Assembly: GCF_009914755.1 (NCBI RefSeq)
Contig: NC_060947.1
Strand: one strand, 5' to 3'
Origin: the human T2T-CHM13v2.0 reference genome, Homo sapiens
Length of the DNA stretch: 64,000 nucleotides
The position numbers and the translations under genes are program-made. The notes beneath the pieces are model-generated. The model had not been told where the DNA came from. It was given only the letters and a program-made list of their open reading frames with translations, and ran no database searches. Numbering within the stretch: position 1 is the stretch's first letter; the number at the start of each line of letters is the position of its first letter. Shown here piece by piece: positions 38,443 to 52,921 of the stretch.

Positions 38443-38706
<264 letters not shown>

Positions 38707-46676: not shown

Positions 46677-46804
46677 GGAACAAGTTCGATTTAATGGCTT
46701 TGGGATTTTTCTCTTCATTATTTATCCTGGAGCATTTGTTGATCTGTTCACCACTCATTTGCAACTTATATCGCCAGTCCAGCAGCTAAGGATATTTTGT
46801 GCAG
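46677..46804 (+). CDS. MBTPS2: MBTPS2 coding exon 5
   Basis: Acceptor TTTCTTAG|G; encodes [42 protein letters not shown]; 128 nt, ends in phase 1; donor CAG|GTAACA. Confidence 0.96.
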
Positions 46805-46999: not shown

Positions 47000-49410
47000 A
47001 CAACATAATTTTAAAAAATTTAAAAACAGAGGAAAACTTTGTTTTGTCCACAACATGAAATCACAAACTATGAAGAATGTCAACTCAGCTGAAATAGAAT
47101 GAAATTTGCATCAAATCAAGGGAGAATATGAAGAATTGACTAAGAGATAAATCAAAAGTATCCAGGAATGGAAAAAAAGGGTTATGAAAGGATGAGTAGT
47201 GAACTCTAGCACTGTCAGAGTTCAATCAGAGAAACAGAATCCCTTGGAGATGGAACCACAGTTCCAGCTGAGTGAAACTGACATACGACAAATCCATCAC
47301 AACCCTGCATCACTTTTAATGGAATAACTGAGGCTAAGCAAGTGTGGAGTTAGAATTCTCAAACTAACAACGACAACAACAACAAAAAAAACCTGAAGGT
47401 GGGAAAAACAAAAACGGGAAATATAAATACTAATTTCCTCAACTTCATAGTGGAGAGGACATCTGCCTGAACCTGATAAATCAAGAAATAGAGGCTTGAG
47501 TATATCACTTAAGATTATAAATGTAAATACTACAAGATCTAAAAACACACATAAACTTTTCAAGTTATCACAGTGAAAGCATGAAACACAGACCAAAGAA
47601 AACAGACCCTATATCAAAAGATAAACCATGGTAATGAATTTAAGACCAAAACACATTTATTTTGTCAATAAACATAAATGAAATAAGCTCACCTACTGAA
47701 AGAAAGATGCCCTTAGTTTGTATTTAAAACATGTCCCAAATATGTGATGTACAAAATAAATCTGTGTAAATAATTACTCAAAAATAATGAAAGTAAAATG
47801 ATGAGCAGAACATAACATGCAAATGGGAACAGAAAATAAGACCAAAAGCATTATATTAGACATTGGGGGCCATTTAACAATAATAAGGAATATAAGCCAC
47901 AATGAAAATATAACAGTTGTGAATCTTACTGTATCAAGTAACAAACCATCAAAGCAAAACAAAAATGGGAAAAGTATAAGAAGAAACAGGTAATAAAAAG
48001 ACTCACGCTTTAATACATGGCAGATAAGTATAAAAAAGTTAGGCTAAGGTAAAAATAGGTATGTCAAACTCTATACCGTGAACACAGAAGACAATATTTT
48101 TTCAAGTGCCCATGGGACTTAAAGTCACAGTAAATTCCCAAGAGAAGACTAGCAAACTAAGTAAAAACTACCTGAAATTTAGAAATTTATCTTAATCACA
48201 CCTTGGATCAATTTAATTCAAACCTGTGATTTCAGTAGATCTAAAAATTATGATGATGAAATCATTTTACTGAGATAATGTTTAAAGTTTTGCTAAAAGA
48301 AAAATGCACTGCCTTAGGCAGTCATGCAAATACAAATGGAAATAGATTAGTTGAGTATTAAACTTAAGTGAGAAAAGAACTGTAAAATAATTAAGAAATG
48401 ATGACGTAATTAGTAAGGATATAGGCAGAAAATAATAAATTAGAAAAAACAAAACTAGATCTGCTAAATCCAAGAGCTCTTAAAAAAAAATCAAAGGTCG
48501 AACAATGAGAAAAAGCATCTAAAGACAATTAGCAATCAGATTGGGGAATGACAATTGATAACAGAGAAAATAAAAACAATTATAAGTGTTGTTTGCTCAT
48601 CTCCACAAAAAAAATTTCAAAACCCTGTATAAATATAAGAAAATAAAAATAGCTGAAATTAACCCAAGAGGCAATCAAAAAAATCTAAATAGGCAAATAA
48701 TTACAATGGGAGAAATTAAGAAAGTTGATAAAGAACGCCCTTTTTCTTTTGAGATGGAGTCTCGCTGTGTTGCCCAGGCTGTAGTGCAGCGGCATGATCT
48801 AGGCTCACTGCAACCTCTGCCTCCCAGGTTGAAGCGATTCTCCTGCCTCAGCCTCCCGAGTAGCTAGGATTACAGGCACGAGCCACCACGCCCAGCTAAT
48901 TTTTGTATTTTTAGTAGAGAAGGGGTTTTGCCATGTTGGCTAGGCTGGTCTCAAACTCCTGACCTCAAGTGACCCTCCTGCCTCGGCCTCCCAAAGTGCT
49001 GGGATTACAGGTGTGGGATTGCTGTGCCCGGCCCAGCTACTCTGGAGGCTGAAGCAGGAGAATCACTCGAACCCAGGAGGCGGAGGTTGCAGTGAGCCGA
49101 GATCGCGCGCCACTGCACTCCAGCCTGGGCGACGGAGCGAGACTCCGTCTCAAAAAAAAAAAAAAATCCTTAGTAAAAGTAGGAATAGCTGCATACATCA
49201 TAATAGCACAACACTTTGCATTCCTATTAAAGGACAAGACAAATTCTACTATCAACTATTACTGATATTAAATGTCGTATTAGTGCAATTAAATAAGAGA
49301 AAAAAGCATAAAAGGAGTAGGCTTTTTTGGCAGATACTGTTATATGGGATGGACAGGAGGGGAAGACATGAAAATCAACTAAAATGAAATACATAAAAAA
49401 TCAGTAAAGA
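47000..49410 (+). mobile_element. Degraded sense-oriented old L1 (L1M-type) remnants in MBTPS2 intron 5
   Basis: Strongly A-rich plus strand with L1-like phrases (TTTTCAAGTGCCCATGG, AATCTAAATAGGCAAATA); similar fragments at about 36940-37970, 54150-55100 and 59580-60900. Confidence 0.55.
48741..49166. mobile_element. Minus-strand full AluS directly abutting a plus-strand AluY-like right arm
   Basis: Minus Alu 48741-49033 ends CCCGGCC and overlaps CCCAGCTACT ... GAGACTCCGTCTC-A(n) at 49032-49166. Confidence 0.9.
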
Positions 49411-49414
49411 GCCT

Positions 49415-49580
49415 GCTTACGAAAGTGGAAAAACAACAGCTGGGCGGGGTCGCAGGGTGGCAAACGTACGCGGGCACGTGCACGTGCTTTTGGGGCCGAC
49501 AGACGCGCCAGTTGCCTAGGCGCATGCGTCTGGCTATCCCAGAAGCACCTGCGCCTTCCGGCTCGTGCTTTCCTCAGTCT
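49415..49580 (+). promoter_or_regulatory. Small CpG-rich putative YY2 promoter
   Basis: GC box GGGCGGGG 49442-49449, double E-box palindrome GCACGTGCACGTGC 49474-49487, NRF1-type GCGCATGCG 49520-49528, dense CpG in otherwise CpG-poor L1-derived DNA. Confidence 0.7.
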
Positions 49581-49711
49581 CGCGCCTTTCTCTGCAGCTC
49601 GCGCCTTTCTCTGCAGCTCGCGCCTTTCTCTGCAGCTCGCGCCTTTCTCTGCAGCTCGCGCCTTTCTCTGCAGCTCGCCCCTTCCTCTGCAGCTCGCCCC
49701 TTCCTCTGCAG
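49579..49711 (+). repeat. 19-bp minisatellite, 7 copies, upstream of YY2 ATG
   Basis: 5 x CTCGCGCCTTTCTCTGCAG followed by 2 x CTCGCCCCTTCCTCTGCAG. Confidence 0.97.
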
Positions 49712-49776
49712 CTCCCACCTCACTCCCCTCAGCGTTCTTTTTCCCACGGTCTTCCCGTTGCCGCTAACCTAACTAA

Positions 49777-50904
<1,128 letters not shown>

Positions 50905-50958
50905 AAAGGAGAAGACCCCTCTCAGACTTGGGAATTATCTTCCAGGACTGCGGTAGGG

Positions 50959-50964
50959 AATAAA
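50959..50964 (+). terminator. Candidate proximal poly(A) signal of YY2
   Basis: AATAAA 55 nt after the stop, with U/GU-rich TTTGTATGTTGTTT downstream. Confidence 0.35.
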
Positions 50965-51718
50965 TATGCCTCTCAAAGCTTTGTATGTTGTTTCTAAGAG
51001 TTTTAAAAAAAAATGAATCCTGCACATTTAAGGTTCGTGTTTTGTTAGAGTAGTAAAAATAGAATTTAAACGTTTTTAAAAAGGTAAACCTTGACATAAG
51101 ATAATAGTGCTAAGATGCCATAGCTTGTTCTGTAACTATTTTTGTAAAGTTTGGTCCCAACAGGAGAAAAATTCGTAGACTTCACATCAAGAGACGGTTC
51201 TTACAAACTGTTTAAAATGGGACTTTTCACATTCTTAGAAATAGGAAGTTCATTTATTGTTTACAATGTTTTTAAAAAACTTGTTAAAAAATTCAAAGTG
51301 TTCATGTTTATACTTTTAGGAATATGCTTAATAAGTCTATGTATGGTTTTTCTGGAGGTTGATAACTTTGGGAAAGATTTACTTTAAAAGAGTGAACAAT
51401 TATATGCATACGTGAAGTATTTTCCTGCTTAAAAAAGTTATATAGGTGTTATTTGTTTTAATCTTGGTTGTAGTCTTGGATGTTAACACATCTTGCATTT
51501 TAGCTGTATTAGGTCATGTAGTATTGATATTAGGTGATTTAATAGTACTAGTTTAAACCTATTTTAGTCATTTTATTTTCCCCAAAATACTACCAGATGC
51601 TGTTGTTTAGTGTAATTTCTTTGCCTGTTCAGTTAAAGTAGTGCTTGCTTGTAGAATATATTGTGTATATGTTGACTTTAACACTTAAGAAGTACATCCT
51701 GTGTAATAGAAAAAGCAA

Positions 51719-51724
51719 AATAAA
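51719..51724 (+). terminator. Poly(A) signal at end of YY2 3'UTR (copy 1)
   Basis: AATAAA followed about 12 nt later by a degenerate A-rich tract AAAGAAGGAAAAAAG, a likely retrocopy tail. Confidence 0.6.
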
Positions 51725-52921
51725 ACACCTCTTCTAAAGAAGGAAAAAAGTAGTTTGCCTATATCAGTACAGAAGTTAGAACTAAAGAAAAGGGGGAGGG
51801 TGCTACTGGCATCTGGTGAGTGGAGGGAGATCAGGAATGCCACTAAACATCCTACAATGCACAGACAGCCCCACGAAACACATAATTATTTGGCTAAAAT
51901 GCCAATAGTGTCAGGTGCAGGGGCTCAGGCCTGTAATGTCAACACTTTGGGAGGCCGAGGTGGGTGGATCGTTTGAGCTCAGGAATTGAACATCAGCCTG
52001 GGCAACATGGCATAACTCGGTCTCTACCAAAAATAAAAAAATTAGCTGAGTGTGGGGCGCACACCTGTGGTCCTAGCTACTCAGGAGGCTGAGATGGGAG
52101 GATCACTGGAGCTGGGGAAGTCGAGGCTGCGGTGAGCCGTGATCGAGCCACTGCACTCCAGCCTAGGTGACAGAGTAAGACCTTGTGTCAAAAAAAAAAA
52201 AAAAAAAGAGAAAAAGGGGCAGAGGGGCTGGGCGCAGGGCTCCTGCTTGTAATCCCAGCACTGTGAGAGGCTGAGGTGGGTGGATCACTTAAGGTCAGGA
52301 GTTCAAGACCAGCCTGTCCAACATGGTGAAACCATCCCCCGGCTACTTAAAAATACAAAAATTAGCCATAGACTTCGTAGACTTCACATCAAGAGACAGT
52401 TCTTACAAACTGTGTTTAAAATGGGACTTTTCACATTCTTAGAAATAGGAAGTTCATTTATTGTTTACAATTTTTTTTTTAAATTGTAAAAAAATTCAAA
52501 ATGTTCATGTTTATACTTTTAGGAATATGCTTAATAAGTCTATGTATGGTTTTTCTGGAGGTTGATAACTTTGGGAAAGATTTACTTTAAAAGAGTGAAC
52601 AATTATATGCATACGTGAAGTATTTTCCTGCTTAAAAAAGTTATATAGGTGTTATTTGTTTTAATCTTGGTTGTATTATTAGATGTTAACACATCTTGCA
52701 TTTTAGCTGTATTAGGTCATGTAGTATTGATATTAGGTGATTTAATAGTACTAGTTTAAACCTATTTTAGTCATTTTATTTTCCCCAAAATACTACCAGA
52801 TGCTGTTGTTTAGTGTAATTTCTTTGCCTGTTCAGTTAAAGTAGTGCTTGCTTGTAGAATATATTGTGTATATGTTGACTTTAACACTTAAGAAGTACAT
52901 CCTGTGTAATAGAAAAAGCAA

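What the first reader, a model, noticed from the sequence alone, without database searches (positions are those of the whole stretch)
49579..49732. Minisatellite made of tandem 3' splice-site mimics just upstream of the YY2 acceptor
Seen: each of 7 units (19 bp) ends in a pyrimidine tract plus CAG (CCTTTCTCTGCAG), and an eighth acceptor-like CTCCCCTCAG lies at 49723-49732, all on the sense strand of MBTPS2 intron 5. Because 19 is not a multiple of 3, successive acceptors cycle through all three frames. From exon 5, units 1, 4, 7 and the 49732 AG enter the YY2 frame but stop at TAA 49765-49767, a stop supplied by the first CTAAC motif. Units 2 and 5 read an overlapping frame to 49963, and units 3 and 6 stop at 49770-49772. 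Only the proximal AG yields the fusion. Inference: the array may act as a U2AF decoy or splice trap that sets the ratio of full-length S2P, truncated S2P with a downstream free YY2 ORF, and fusion. Five identical CpG-intact units suggest recent expansion and possible VNTR polymorphism.
Basis: partly seen in the sequence, partly recalled or inferred. Interest (0 to 1): 0.72.

Follow-up and report, generated by a model that had tools for sequence, protein, structure and literature searches.

The report
Polymorphic 19-bp repeat in YY2 leader
A real, commonly variable 19-base repeat sits in front of the YY2 retrogene inside an MBTPS2 intron; it appears to be inherited from the parent gene YY1, its units look like splice acceptors, and no evidence yet shows that it controls splicing.

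Summary

- **Already catalogued.** It is TR 183303223 in a published VNTR catalogue, listed as commonly polymorphic. In lymphoblastoid lines its genotype associates with YY2 RNA (p 2.7e-7) but not MBTPS2 RNA (p 0.82).
- **Origin (new here).** The unit seems to descend from a 19-nt-period C-rich repeat in the 5'UTR of the parent gene YY1. The match is 15 of 19 ungapped and colinear. All four differences are C in YY1: three C/T, and one C/A that supplies the A of the AG.
- **Acceptor likeness.** By a recalled acceptor matrix the units score 10.4-11.1, within the range of real MBTPS2 acceptors. They have no branch-point consensus; the only A in each unit is the A of its CAG.
- **Context.** The array lies in a small CpG island, just after promoter-like motifs.

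Best reading: a leader/promoter-proximal VNTR that affects YY2 RNA level, with acceptor likeness largely a by-product. The decoy/trap idea remains untested.

The parts
49579..49673 (+). Units 1-5 of the 19-bp minisatellite. They are identical (CTCGCGCCTTTCTCTGCAG), carry 2 CpG each, and each ends in CAG.
   Evidence: Acceptor matrix score 10.4 each. The exact 19-mer is found only here in the genome.
49674..49711 (+). Units 6-7, identical to each other (CTCGCCCCTTCCTCTGCAG). These are the copies closest to the YY1 5'UTR 19-mer.
   Evidence: They match L007:1118-1136 at 15 of 19 ungapped. Matrix score 11.1.
49560..49578 (+). Degenerate upstream copy (unit 0) with an extra acceptor-like AG at 49576-7.
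   Evidence: Alignment A1. One search gives the frame (stop at 49961-3). Matrix score 6.8.
49712..49732 (+). Degenerate downstream copy (unit 8) ending in the AG at 49731-2. It holds branch-point-like CCCAC (A at 49717) and CTCAC (A at 49722).
   Evidence: Matrix score 7.8.
49733..49785 (+). Rest of the YY1-derived leader. It holds the CCCACGG anchor (49744-49750), three CTAAC motifs (49764-49777) and the AG at 49782-3 just before the YY2 ATG.
   Evidence: Colinear alignment with the YY1 5'UTR. YY1 reads ccctcagccATGG at the same place. Branch-point table. Matrix score of AG 49783 is 3.7.
49440..49578 (+). CpG-rich stretch just upstream of the array with promoter-like motifs: GGGCGG at 49442, CACGTG at 49475 and 49481, GCGCATGCG at 49520. 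Probable YY2 core promoter.
   Evidence: GC 0.66, 15 CpG, observed/expected 0.99. GCGCATGCG occurs once in the 64-kb window. The factor names for these motifs are recalled.
46677..46804 (+). MBTPS2 exon 5, whose donor would join any of these AGs.
   Evidence: Hub annotation. Donor score 7.4. Phase 1 after 670 coding nt.
49786..50904 (+). YY2 coding sequence (retrocopy of YY1).
   Evidence: Hub annotation. (100% self match; YY1 exons found on contig C14).

Best explanation
The array is a common human copy-number-variable minisatellite in the 5' leader and CpG island of the retrogene YY2.

Origin (inferred): it was not built as a splicing device. Its 19-nt unit most likely descends from a C-rich repeat of the same 19-nt period in the 5'UTR of the parent gene YY1, carried in by retroposition. 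The unit differs from the YY1 19-mer at four positions, all C in YY1: three are T in YY2, and one is A, giving CAG where YY1 has CCG. That makes a U-richer pyrimidine tract ending in CAG. The copy was then amplified, the five identical 5' units most recently.

Effect (association shown in print; mechanism inferred): a copy-number-dependent cis effect on the amount of YY2-containing RNA. The likely route is that the array forms about 40% of the CpGs of the promoter-proximal island and a long unstructured C/U-rich stretch at the start of the leader.

Its likeness to 3' splice sites is largely a by-product. The units may occasionally serve as cryptic acceptors for MBTPS2 exon 5. They lack branch points, so the complete acceptors are the two AGs downstream of the array.
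For: Variable repeat, shown in print:
- TR 183303223 is chrX:21856278-21856413 (GRCh38), pattern 19, 136 bp, 7.157895 copies. This has the same period, length and copy number as the window's array.
- It is listed in Common_VNTRs. The major observed genotype is -1/-1 in 659 of 1123 genotyped samples, with 1381 not genotyped.
- The coordinate offset of 21806699 also places a second published YY2 repeat on its window copy, within one base.

Expression:
- ANOVA in 445 lymphoblastoid lines gives YY2 p 2.67e-7 (FDR 4.9e-6, largest difference of class means 0.54) and MBTPS2 p 0.82.
- One unit is under 1% of the 2754-nt transcript, so read mapping alone cannot explain a 0.54 difference (inference).

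Origin:
- The YY1 5'UTR has its own 19-nt-period repeat: L007 1116-1160, 2.4 copies, 88% matches, score 69.
- Units 6-7 match L007:1118-1136 at 15 of 19 ungapped. The four differences are C in YY1 against T, T, T and A in YY2. Shuffled units reach 15 of 19 in 23 of 2000 trials.
- Units 6, 7 and 8 together match at 37 of 59 ungapped; shuffles reach this in 16 of 2000.
- A colinear local alignment of 49675-49750 with L007 1120-1197 scores 40. Shuffles reach this in 0 of 500 and 3 of 500.
- The shared anchors CCCACGG and CTCAGCCATGG follow in the same order.
- Units 1-5 are further from YY1, at 13 of 19.

Context:
- The CpG island is 49440-49785, with 31 CpG and observed/expected 0.95. The array holds 12 of the 31.
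- Promoter-like motifs lie 50-140 nt upstream of the array.
- The RNA folds no better than shuffles, z +0.76.
- Reviews report that the human YY2 proximal promoter is methylation-sensitive, citing Klar 2009, which I did not see.

By-product argument:
- No adenine occurs within units other than in the CAG. Full yUnAy matches occur only at 49722, 49767, 49772 and 49776.
Against: - The expression association could be due to linked variants. The table gives neither direction nor allele classes, and the reference-length allele was never genotyped (ref 0).
- If YY2 reads in those cells come mainly from MBTPS2-driven chimeric transcripts, the same association fits a splicing effect. The authors of the SAFB study state this is so for their own cells.
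- The YY1 similarity lies in low-complexity C-rich sequence and is only modestly significant (about 1 in 100). A second YY1 19-mer at L007:1208 shares the unit's ends at 13 of 19.
- Only human sequence was available, so the age and order of events are inferred.
- By the matrix the units are among the best acceptor-like AGs in the intron. Composition alone gives this in only about 1% of shuffles.
- RefSeq places the YY2 start at 49288, not at the CpG island.
Confidence: 0.5

Rival explanations
1. Splice trap or U2AF decoy. The tandem acceptor-like units capture or distract the machinery acting on the MBTPS2 exon 5 donor. Copy number would then set how often host transcripts end in YY2 and in which reading frame.
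For: - Units score 10.4-11.1, against 3.7 for the AG at 49783 and 13.6 for the true exon 6 acceptor. Only 1 other AG of the 1081 in intron 5 scores as high as the units.
- Exon 5 is spliced to a cryptic site upstream of YY2 in SAFB-depleted human cells, with exons 6-11 reduced.
- In mouse, the YY2-encoding transcript Yy2-201 is reported identical to Mbtps2-003.
- VNTR genotype associates with YY2-mapped RNA.
- Acceptor-level scores arise in only about 1% of shuffled units.
Against: - The units have no branch-point consensus.
- No junction, CLIP or minigene data could be found. The published texts do not place the cryptic site, and a search of the supplements for its coordinates found nothing.
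- MBTPS2 RNA is not associated with genotype (p 0.82).
- The strict In100 decoy definition is not met.
- The layout is explained by descent from the YY1 leader.
Confidence: 0.2
2. Repressor platform. The array binds pyrimidine-tract proteins (PTBP1, or poly-C binders) at regular 19-nt spacing. This masks the nearby complete acceptors at 49732 and 49783, so MBTPS2 intron 5 is normally removed intact and YY2 capture is limited to cells with low repressor levels.
For: - TCTCT occurs 5 times and CTTTCT 5 times in 49560-49760. Window densities are 0.42 and 0.12 per 200 nt.
- The array is 75% pyrimidine and unstructured.
- PTBP1 represses splicing of an intron in the mouse Yy2 5'UTR. This is reported only via reviews of Tahmasebi 2016.
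- The caspase-2 In100 element pairs a decoy acceptor with U/C-rich PTB sites.
- PTB motif preferences are recalled, not tested.
Against: - No binding data.
- The mouse intron could not be compared because no mouse sequence was available and the primary paper is not held.
- Units 6-7 lack the TCTCT motif.
- The published repressor of this cryptic site is SAFB, acting on the retrogene body, not PTBP1.
Confidence: 0.12
3. Neutral minisatellite. It is a slippage-prone relic of the retroposed leader with no effect of its own, and the YY2 association reflects linked variants or genotype-class artefacts.
For: - Five identical units indicate recent, probably ongoing, expansion and contraction.
- The reference-length allele was never genotyped, and 1381 of 2504 samples had no call and were pooled as 'other'.
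- A second large VNTR study did not include this locus, and a third shows no YY2 or MBTPS2 entry in its held supplements.
- The association is a single-tissue ANOVA without fine-mapping.
Against: - The association is strong, with FDR 4.9e-6 among 1071 gene-VNTR pairs tested.
- The array supplies 12 of 31 CpGs of a small promoter-proximal island and lies in the transcribed leader. Length changes there often matter (general knowledge).
Confidence: 0.25

Closest known systems
Expression-associated gene-proximal minisatellites (eVNTRs) in 5'UTRs and promoters, as catalogued by VNTRseek (Eslami Rasekh 2021)
   Same: Unit of at least 7 bp, commonly polymorphic, in a 5'UTR, CpG island and TFBS-annotated region, and genotype associated with expression of the nearest gene. 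This very locus is TR 183303223.
   Different: It lies at the same time in a host-gene intron on the sense strand. Its units look like acceptors. It seems inherited from the parent gene's leader. Causality and direction of the effect are unknown.
Caspase-2 In100 element: a decoy 3' splice site followed by U/C-rich PTB sites (Havlioglu 2007)
   Same: An acceptor-like pyrimidine tract plus CAG, followed by sequence over 70% U/C, located in an intron.
   Different: The UAAC branch site required by the published definition is missing, and there are 0 strict matches in the window. The element here is tandemly repeated and copy-variable. No biochemical evidence exists for it.
C. elegans U2AF65 (uaf-1) alternative exon carrying multiple copies of the 3' splice site consensus
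   Same: Several acceptor consensus copies in a row within one transcribed segment (mentioned in the passage read).
   Different: Different organism and consensus, and the copies there sit in an exon. Function there is known to me only from recall. No evidence here of nuclear retention or U2AF binding.
Same-strand retrogenes acting as gene traps in host introns, held in check by SAFB (Ilik 2024)
   Same: This is the same locus. MBTPS2 exon 5 is spliced to a cryptic site upstream of YY2 and the transcript ends at the YY2 poly(A) site.
   Different: That work attributes control to SAFB binding of the retrogene body. It does not mention the repeat, and the text I could read does not give the acceptor position.
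NAGNAG tandem acceptors and the CFTR intron 8 (TG)m(T)n tract (recalled)
   Same: Closely spaced alternative AGs, or a polymorphic repeat at an acceptor, that alter splicing outcome.
   Different: Spacing here is 19 nt, not 3. The array is not at an annotated acceptor.

Membership tests
Minisatellite / VNTR | Head-to-tail copies of a unit of 7 bp or more | tested here: met
   TRF: period 19, 7.2 copies, 98% matches, score 244.
Minisatellite / VNTR | Copy number varies in the population | tested here: met
   Taken from a published table, not from my own genotyping. TR 183303223 is in Common_VNTRs, with major observed genotype -1/-1 in 659 of 1123 samples. Its identity with the window array rests on equal period, length and copy number, and on a consistent coordinate offset.
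Expression-associated VNTR (eVNTR) | Genotype associated with expression of a nearby gene | tested here: met
   Published table: YY2 p 2.67e-7, FDR 4.94e-6; MBTPS2 p 0.82. Causality was not tested.
Functional 3' splice site | Pyrimidine tract followed by YAG | tested here: met
   Matrix score 10.4-11.1, against 3.6-13.6 for 6 real MBTPS2 acceptors. The matrix was recalled and is approximate.
Functional 3' splice site | Branch-point consensus (yUnAy) about 18-40 nt upstream, with no intervening AG | tested here: not met
   The only adenines in the array are those of the CAGs (TGCAG, 1 of 3 positions). Full matches occur only at 49722, 49767, 49772 and 49776.
Functional 3' splice site | Observed exon-exon junctions | not testable with these tools
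   No RNA data are available here. [quoted passage not shown]
In100-like decoy 3' splice site element | UAAC, then 5-10 nt, then a pyrimidine tract of 30-40 nt, then CAG, then 20-60 nt of over 70% U/C (published definition) | tested here: not met
   0 strict matches on either strand of the window. Without the UAAC requirement there are 31 matches on the + strand, 9 of them at 49575-49730.
PTBP1 binding platform | Several UCUCU/CUUUCU-type motifs in a pyrimidine context | tested here: met
   5 TCTCT and 5 CTTTCT in 49560-49760, against 0.42 and 0.12 per 200 nt in the window. The motifs are recalled.
PTBP1 binding platform | Protein binding and repression | not testable with these tools
   No CLIP or knock-down data could be reached.
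Retroposed parental 5'UTR | Colinear similarity to the parent's leader upstream of the shared ATG | tested here: met
   - Local alignment score 40; shuffles reach it in 0 of 500 and 3 of 500.
- 15 of 19 and 37 of 59 ungapped matches; shuffles reach these in 23 and 16 of 2000.
- Same 19-nt period in YY1.
- The significance is modest because the sequence is low-complexity.
NAGNAG tandem acceptor | Two AGs 3 nt apart at one acceptor | tested here: not met
   AGs are 19-21 nt apart.

The most novel reading that the evidence does not exclude
A common X-linked copy-number polymorphism of tandem acceptor-like units sets how often MBTPS2 pre-mRNA is captured by the YY2 retrogene, and in which reading frame. 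People would then differ heritably in the balance of full-length site-2 protease, truncated protease and YY2-containing RNA. The published YY2 expression association would be the first sign of it.
Probability: 0.12. Interest if true: 0.7.

Novelty: new member of a known kind. Interest (0 to 1): 0.38.

Why it matters
- **The genes.** YY2 is a dosage-sensitive transcription factor. MBTPS2 encodes site-2 protease, an X-linked disease gene by my recall. How the two share one locus is still debated: own promoter or host promoter.
- **The variant.** A common length variant sits exactly between the probable YY2 promoter and the YY2 start codon, on the sense strand of the host intron. It is a natural genetic handle on that question, and it already carries a published association with YY2 RNA.
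- **The origin.** The apparent descent of the unit from a 19-nt repeat in the YY1 leader shows how a parent's C-rich 5'UTR can come to resemble acceptors inside a host intron. That is a plausible route by which retrogenes become gene traps.
- **If neutral.** The array is then an ordinary minisatellite.

Tried and rejected
- **Known RNA family:** none in 49000-52200.
- **RNA structure in the array:** none beyond shuffles, z +0.76.
- **Member of a dispersed repeat family:** the exact unit occurs only here. The single other DNA match (contig C1, 74% over 128 nt) is a different C/T-rich repeat; I take it to be the antisense of a coding repeat, from recall, and treated it as chance.
- **A YY2 5'UTR intron ending in the array, like the mouse 117-nt intron:** no convincing donor in 49288-49790. 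The best score is 3.2, against 2.2-11.0 for real donors. Not excluded.
- **Strict In100 element:** not met.
- **Exact cryptic acceptor in Ilik 2024:** not stated in the main-text or peer-review passages shown. No matching coordinates appear in 7 text supplements. One supplementary PDF of pictures could not be read and may show it.
- **Tahmasebi 2016 (PMC5098618):** not held. Klar 2009 and Luo 2006 were not seen. All three are known to me only through citing papers.
- **Other VNTR resources:** Bakhtiari 2021 lists two other repeats of this locus but not this one. The held supplements of PMC11701250 have no YY2 or MBTPS2 entry.
- **Papers describing this repeat as a splice mimic or as YY1-derived:** none seen in the four search listings. 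One search lists 17 papers holding both YY2 and MBTPS2. I read passages of 8 of them and only the listing for the other 9.
- **Other species:** no other primate or mammalian genome was available, so conservation and the age of the expansion were not tested.
Full report
**1. The observation**

Tandem Repeats Finder reports one array at 49579-49714: period 19, 7.2 copies, 98% matches, no indels, score 244. It is the best array of period 10-60 in the whole window at score 80 or more.

Units 1-5 are identical (CTCGCGCCTTTCTCTGCAG). Units 6-7 are identical to each other (CTCGCCCCTTCCTCTGCAG).

A degenerate copy lies on each side:
- Downstream, ending in the AG at 49731-2.

I rebuilt the reading frames from the annotated coding exons. 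These give 670 nt and phase 1.
- Units 1, 4, 7 and the AG at 49732 stop at TAA 49765-7.
- Units 2 and 5 stop at TGA 49961-3.
- Units 3 and 6 stop at TAA 49770-2.
- Only the AG at 49782-3 runs on to the YY2 stop.

**2. Is the acceptor likeness more than chance?**

No MaxEnt model was available. I used a position matrix for -14 to +1 recalled from the Shapiro-Senapathy type tables, so the scores are approximate.

| Site | Score |
|---|---|
| Units 1-5 | 10.4 |
| Units 6-7 | 11.1 |
| AG 49732 | 7.8 |
| AG 49577 | 6.8 |
| AG 49783 (before the YY2 ATG) | 3.7 |
| Six annotated MBTPS2 acceptors | 3.6-13.6 |
| True exon 6 acceptor | 13.6 |

- Of 1081 AGs on the sense strand of intron 5, only one outside the array (48828) scores as high as a unit.
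- In the window, 26 of 4606 sense-strand AGs score 10 or more.
- Arrays built from shuffled units reach the observed score in 240 of 20000 (unit 1) and 158 of 20000 (unit 6) trials.
- Genome-wide, the exact unit occurs only here. With up to 2 mismatches there are 35 hits, 7 of them here, against 1 for the reversed control. The reversed pattern has one more CpG, so that control is biased.

So "acceptor mimic" is a fair description at the level of tract plus AG.

It fails at the branch point. The only adenines in the array are those of the CAGs, in the context TGCAG, which matches 1 of the 3 scored positions of yUnAy. Full matches occur only at:
- 49722 (CTCAC), 10 nt before the AG at 49732.
- 49767, 49772 and 49776 (CTAAC), which are 16, 11 and 7 nt before the AG at 49783.
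- CCCAC at 49717 matches 2 of 3 positions and lies 15 nt before the AG at 49732.

The complete acceptor signals are therefore the two AGs downstream of the array, not the units. The yUnAy rule and the distance expectations are established knowledge that I recalled.

**3. Where it sits**

Both genes are on the + strand. The array lies in MBTPS2 intron 5 and also inside the single annotated YY2 exon, 75-207 nt before the ATG (hub annotation).

It is part of a small CpG island at 49440-49785: 346 nt, GC 0.64, 31 CpG, observed/expected 0.95. The array holds 12 of the 31 CpGs. The 152 nt between the RefSeq start (49288) and the island have GC 0.34 and 1 CpG.

Just upstream of the array lie GGGCGG (49442), two CACGTG (49475, 49481; 6 in the window) and GCGCATGCG (49520; the only one in the window). 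I recall these as Sp1, E-box and NRF1-type motifs. They suggest a CpG-type core promoter ending about 50 nt before the array, which would put the array at the very start of the leader.

The RNA of 49540-49800 folds no better than shuffles: -51.4 against -54.6 +/- 4.1 kcal/mol, z +0.76. No Rfam family matches.

**4. Where it came from (new here)**

A protein search of the window's own genome found YY1 on contig C14. The YY1 ATG is at L007:1273.

- BLAST homology between YY2 and YY1 begins 7 nt before the ATG. There is a second weak hit between 49673-49703 and L007 1117-1147 (80.6% of 31 nt, E 0.002).
- The YY1 leader reads ...ccctcagccATGG. The AG before the YY2 ATG is therefore also present in the YY1 leader.
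- The YY1 leader contains its own repeat of the same period: L007 1116-1160, period 19, 2.4 copies, 88% matches, score 69.
- Units 6-7 align without gaps to L007:1118-1136 at 15 of 19 positions. The four differences are all C in YY1: T at three positions in YY2, and A at the fourth, which supplies the A of the AG.
- Units 1-5 match the same 19-mer at 13 of 19. The two further differences are a G and a T against C in YY1.

Controls:
- Shuffled unit 6 reaches 15 of 19 somewhere in 493 nt of YY1 upstream sequence in 23 of 2000 trials.
- Units 6, 7 and 8 together match at 37 of 59 ungapped; shuffles reach that in 16 of 2000.
- A gapped local alignment of 49675-49750 with L007 1120-1197 scores 40. 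Dinucleotide shuffles reach it in 0 of 500 with the ATG-proximal part and 3 of 500 without it.
- The order is colinear: repeat, then CCCACGG, then CTCAGCCATGG.

Against this reading:
- The sequence is C-rich and of low complexity.
- A second YY1 19-mer (L007:1208) shares the unit's ends at 13 of 19. It lies on the other side of the CCCACGG anchor.
- I had only human sequence.

I put descent from the YY1 leader at about 0.75. On this reading the acceptor-like layout did not need selection. A C-rich 19-nt unit, once outside the YY1 island, would have changed at a few C positions, gained one A, and then been amplified. The direction of these changes is inferred from present-day human YY1.

**5. 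What is in print about it**

*VNTR catalogue (Eslami Rasekh 2021, PMC8096271).* I read passages of the text and rows of the supplementary tables.
- TR 183303223 is at chrX:21856278-21856413 (GRCh38), pattern 19, array 136 bp, 7.157895 copies. It is flagged intron, 5' UTR, CpG and TFBS, and is listed among common VNTRs (1129 samples).
- The major observed genotype is -1/-1 in 659 of 1123 genotyped samples. The reference allele was never called (ref 0), and 1381 samples have no call.
- My inference is that the 136-bp reference allele plus flanks exceeds the read length, so samples with seven or more copies fall into the no-call class.
- Period, length and copy number equal those in the window. 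The implied coordinate offset also places another published YY2 repeat on its window copy to within one base.
- In 445 lymphoblastoid lines, ANOVA of expression residuals on genotype gives YY2 p 2.67e-7 (FDR 4.94e-6, largest difference of class means 0.54) and MBTPS2 p 0.82.
- Neither direction nor fine-mapping is given.

*Other VNTR studies.* Bakhtiari 2021 (PMC8024321, supplement rows only) lists two other repeats of this locus but not this array. PMC11701250 has no entry for either gene in its held supplements.

*Splicing (Ilik 2024, PMC10901741).* I read text passages and peer-review file passages.
- MBTPS2 is down-regulated in SAFB-depleted human and mouse cells because of splicing interference and early termination by the same-strand retrogene YY2.
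- They also write that in their cells there is no independent YY2 expression.
- The position of the site is not given in what I could read, and no matching coordinates occur in the 7 text supplements. One picture-only file could not be read.

*Mouse.* Perez-Palacios 2016 reports that transcript Mbtps2-003 is identical to the YY2-encoding Yy2-201. Reviews report that PTBP1 represses removal of a 117-nt intron in the mouse Yy2 5'UTR. The primary paper is not held.

*Promoter debate.* Whether YY2 uses its own methylation-sensitive promoter or the host's is described as unresolved.

**6. How it most likely works**

Shown:
- A common length polymorphism.
- Location in the leader and CpG island.
- Acceptor-like tract plus AG without a branch point.
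- A published association with YY2 RNA and none with MBTPS2 RNA.

Inferred: descent from the YY1 leader, and a copy-number effect on YY2 output through island size, methylation or the leader.

I commit to this reading at about 0.5. If most YY2-mapped reads come from exon 5-YY2 chimeras, a change in capture could move YY2 counts strongly while leaving MBTPS2 gene-level counts almost unchanged, because exons 1-5 are shared.

| Rival | Confidence |
|---|---|
| Splice trap / U2AF decoy | about 0.2 |
| Pyrimidine-tract repressor platform masking the two complete acceptors | about 0.12 |
| Neutrality, with a linked-variant association | about 0.25 |

In support of the repressor platform, there are 5 TCTCT and 5 CTTTCT motifs in 200 nt, the array is 75% pyrimidine, and it is unstructured.

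**7. Comparison with known kinds**

- It is a member of the gene-proximal expression-associated minisatellites, and is already in that catalogue.
- It works, at most, like the caspase-2 In100 decoy acceptor. It fails the published In100 definition because the UAAC branch site is absent: 0 strict matches in the window. Without that requirement, 9 of the 31 sense-strand matches are at this locus.
- The C. elegans U2AF65 exon with multiple acceptor consensus copies, mentioned in the passage, is the nearest precedent for tandem acceptor mimics.
- NAGNAG acceptors differ in spacing.

**8. Verdict**

It is already catalogued. Its most interesting new feature is its apparent inheritance from the YY1 leader. 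The decoy/trap function is possible but unsupported, and it can be tested directly with existing RNA data.

Noticed in passing
window 49440-49540: Promoter-like cluster just before the array: GGGCGG at 49442, twin CACGTG at 49475 and 49481, and the window's only GCGCATGCG at 49520. It lies about 150-250 nt downstream of the RefSeq YY2 start (49288), which sits in AT-rich, CpG-poor sequence. The true start may lie at the island.
   Followed up: partly
window 49764-49783 and L007:1263-1276: Three overlapping or adjacent CTAAC branch-point-like motifs lie 7-16 nt before the AG at 49782-3. The CTCAGCC before the ATG is shared with YY1, so the only AG that gives an in-frame S2P-YY2 fusion is also present in the parent's leader.
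   Followed up: partly
L007:1116-1160 (YY1 5'UTR, contig C14): The YY1 leader itself has a 19-nt-period C-rich repeat (2.4 copies, 88% matches, score 69).
   Followed up: partly
window 50191-50223 and 50168-50186: In-frame coding repeats in YY2: a 12-mer AGCCCAGCAAAA (2.7 copies) and a hexamer CATCAA (3.2 copies). The 12-mer is listed by Bakhtiari 2021 as a coding VNTR with alleles of 12-48 bp, not tested for expression.
   Followed up: no
window 38572-38654 (MBTPS2 exon 3): Coding C/T-rich repeat with periods 6, 9, 15 and 18. It is listed by Bakhtiari 2021 as a coding VNTR with alleles of 15-150 bp and no eQTL.
   Followed up: no
L002:1490-1620 (contig C1): The only other genomic DNA match to the array region (74% over 128 nt) is a different C/T-rich repeat of longer period. 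I take it to be the antisense of a coding repeat (recalled guess: trichohyalin) and treated it as chance similarity.
   Followed up: partly
window 52020-52041: The annotated YY2 3' end uses a poly(A) signal (hit at 52032) inside what looks like an Alu-derived tail.
   Followed up: no
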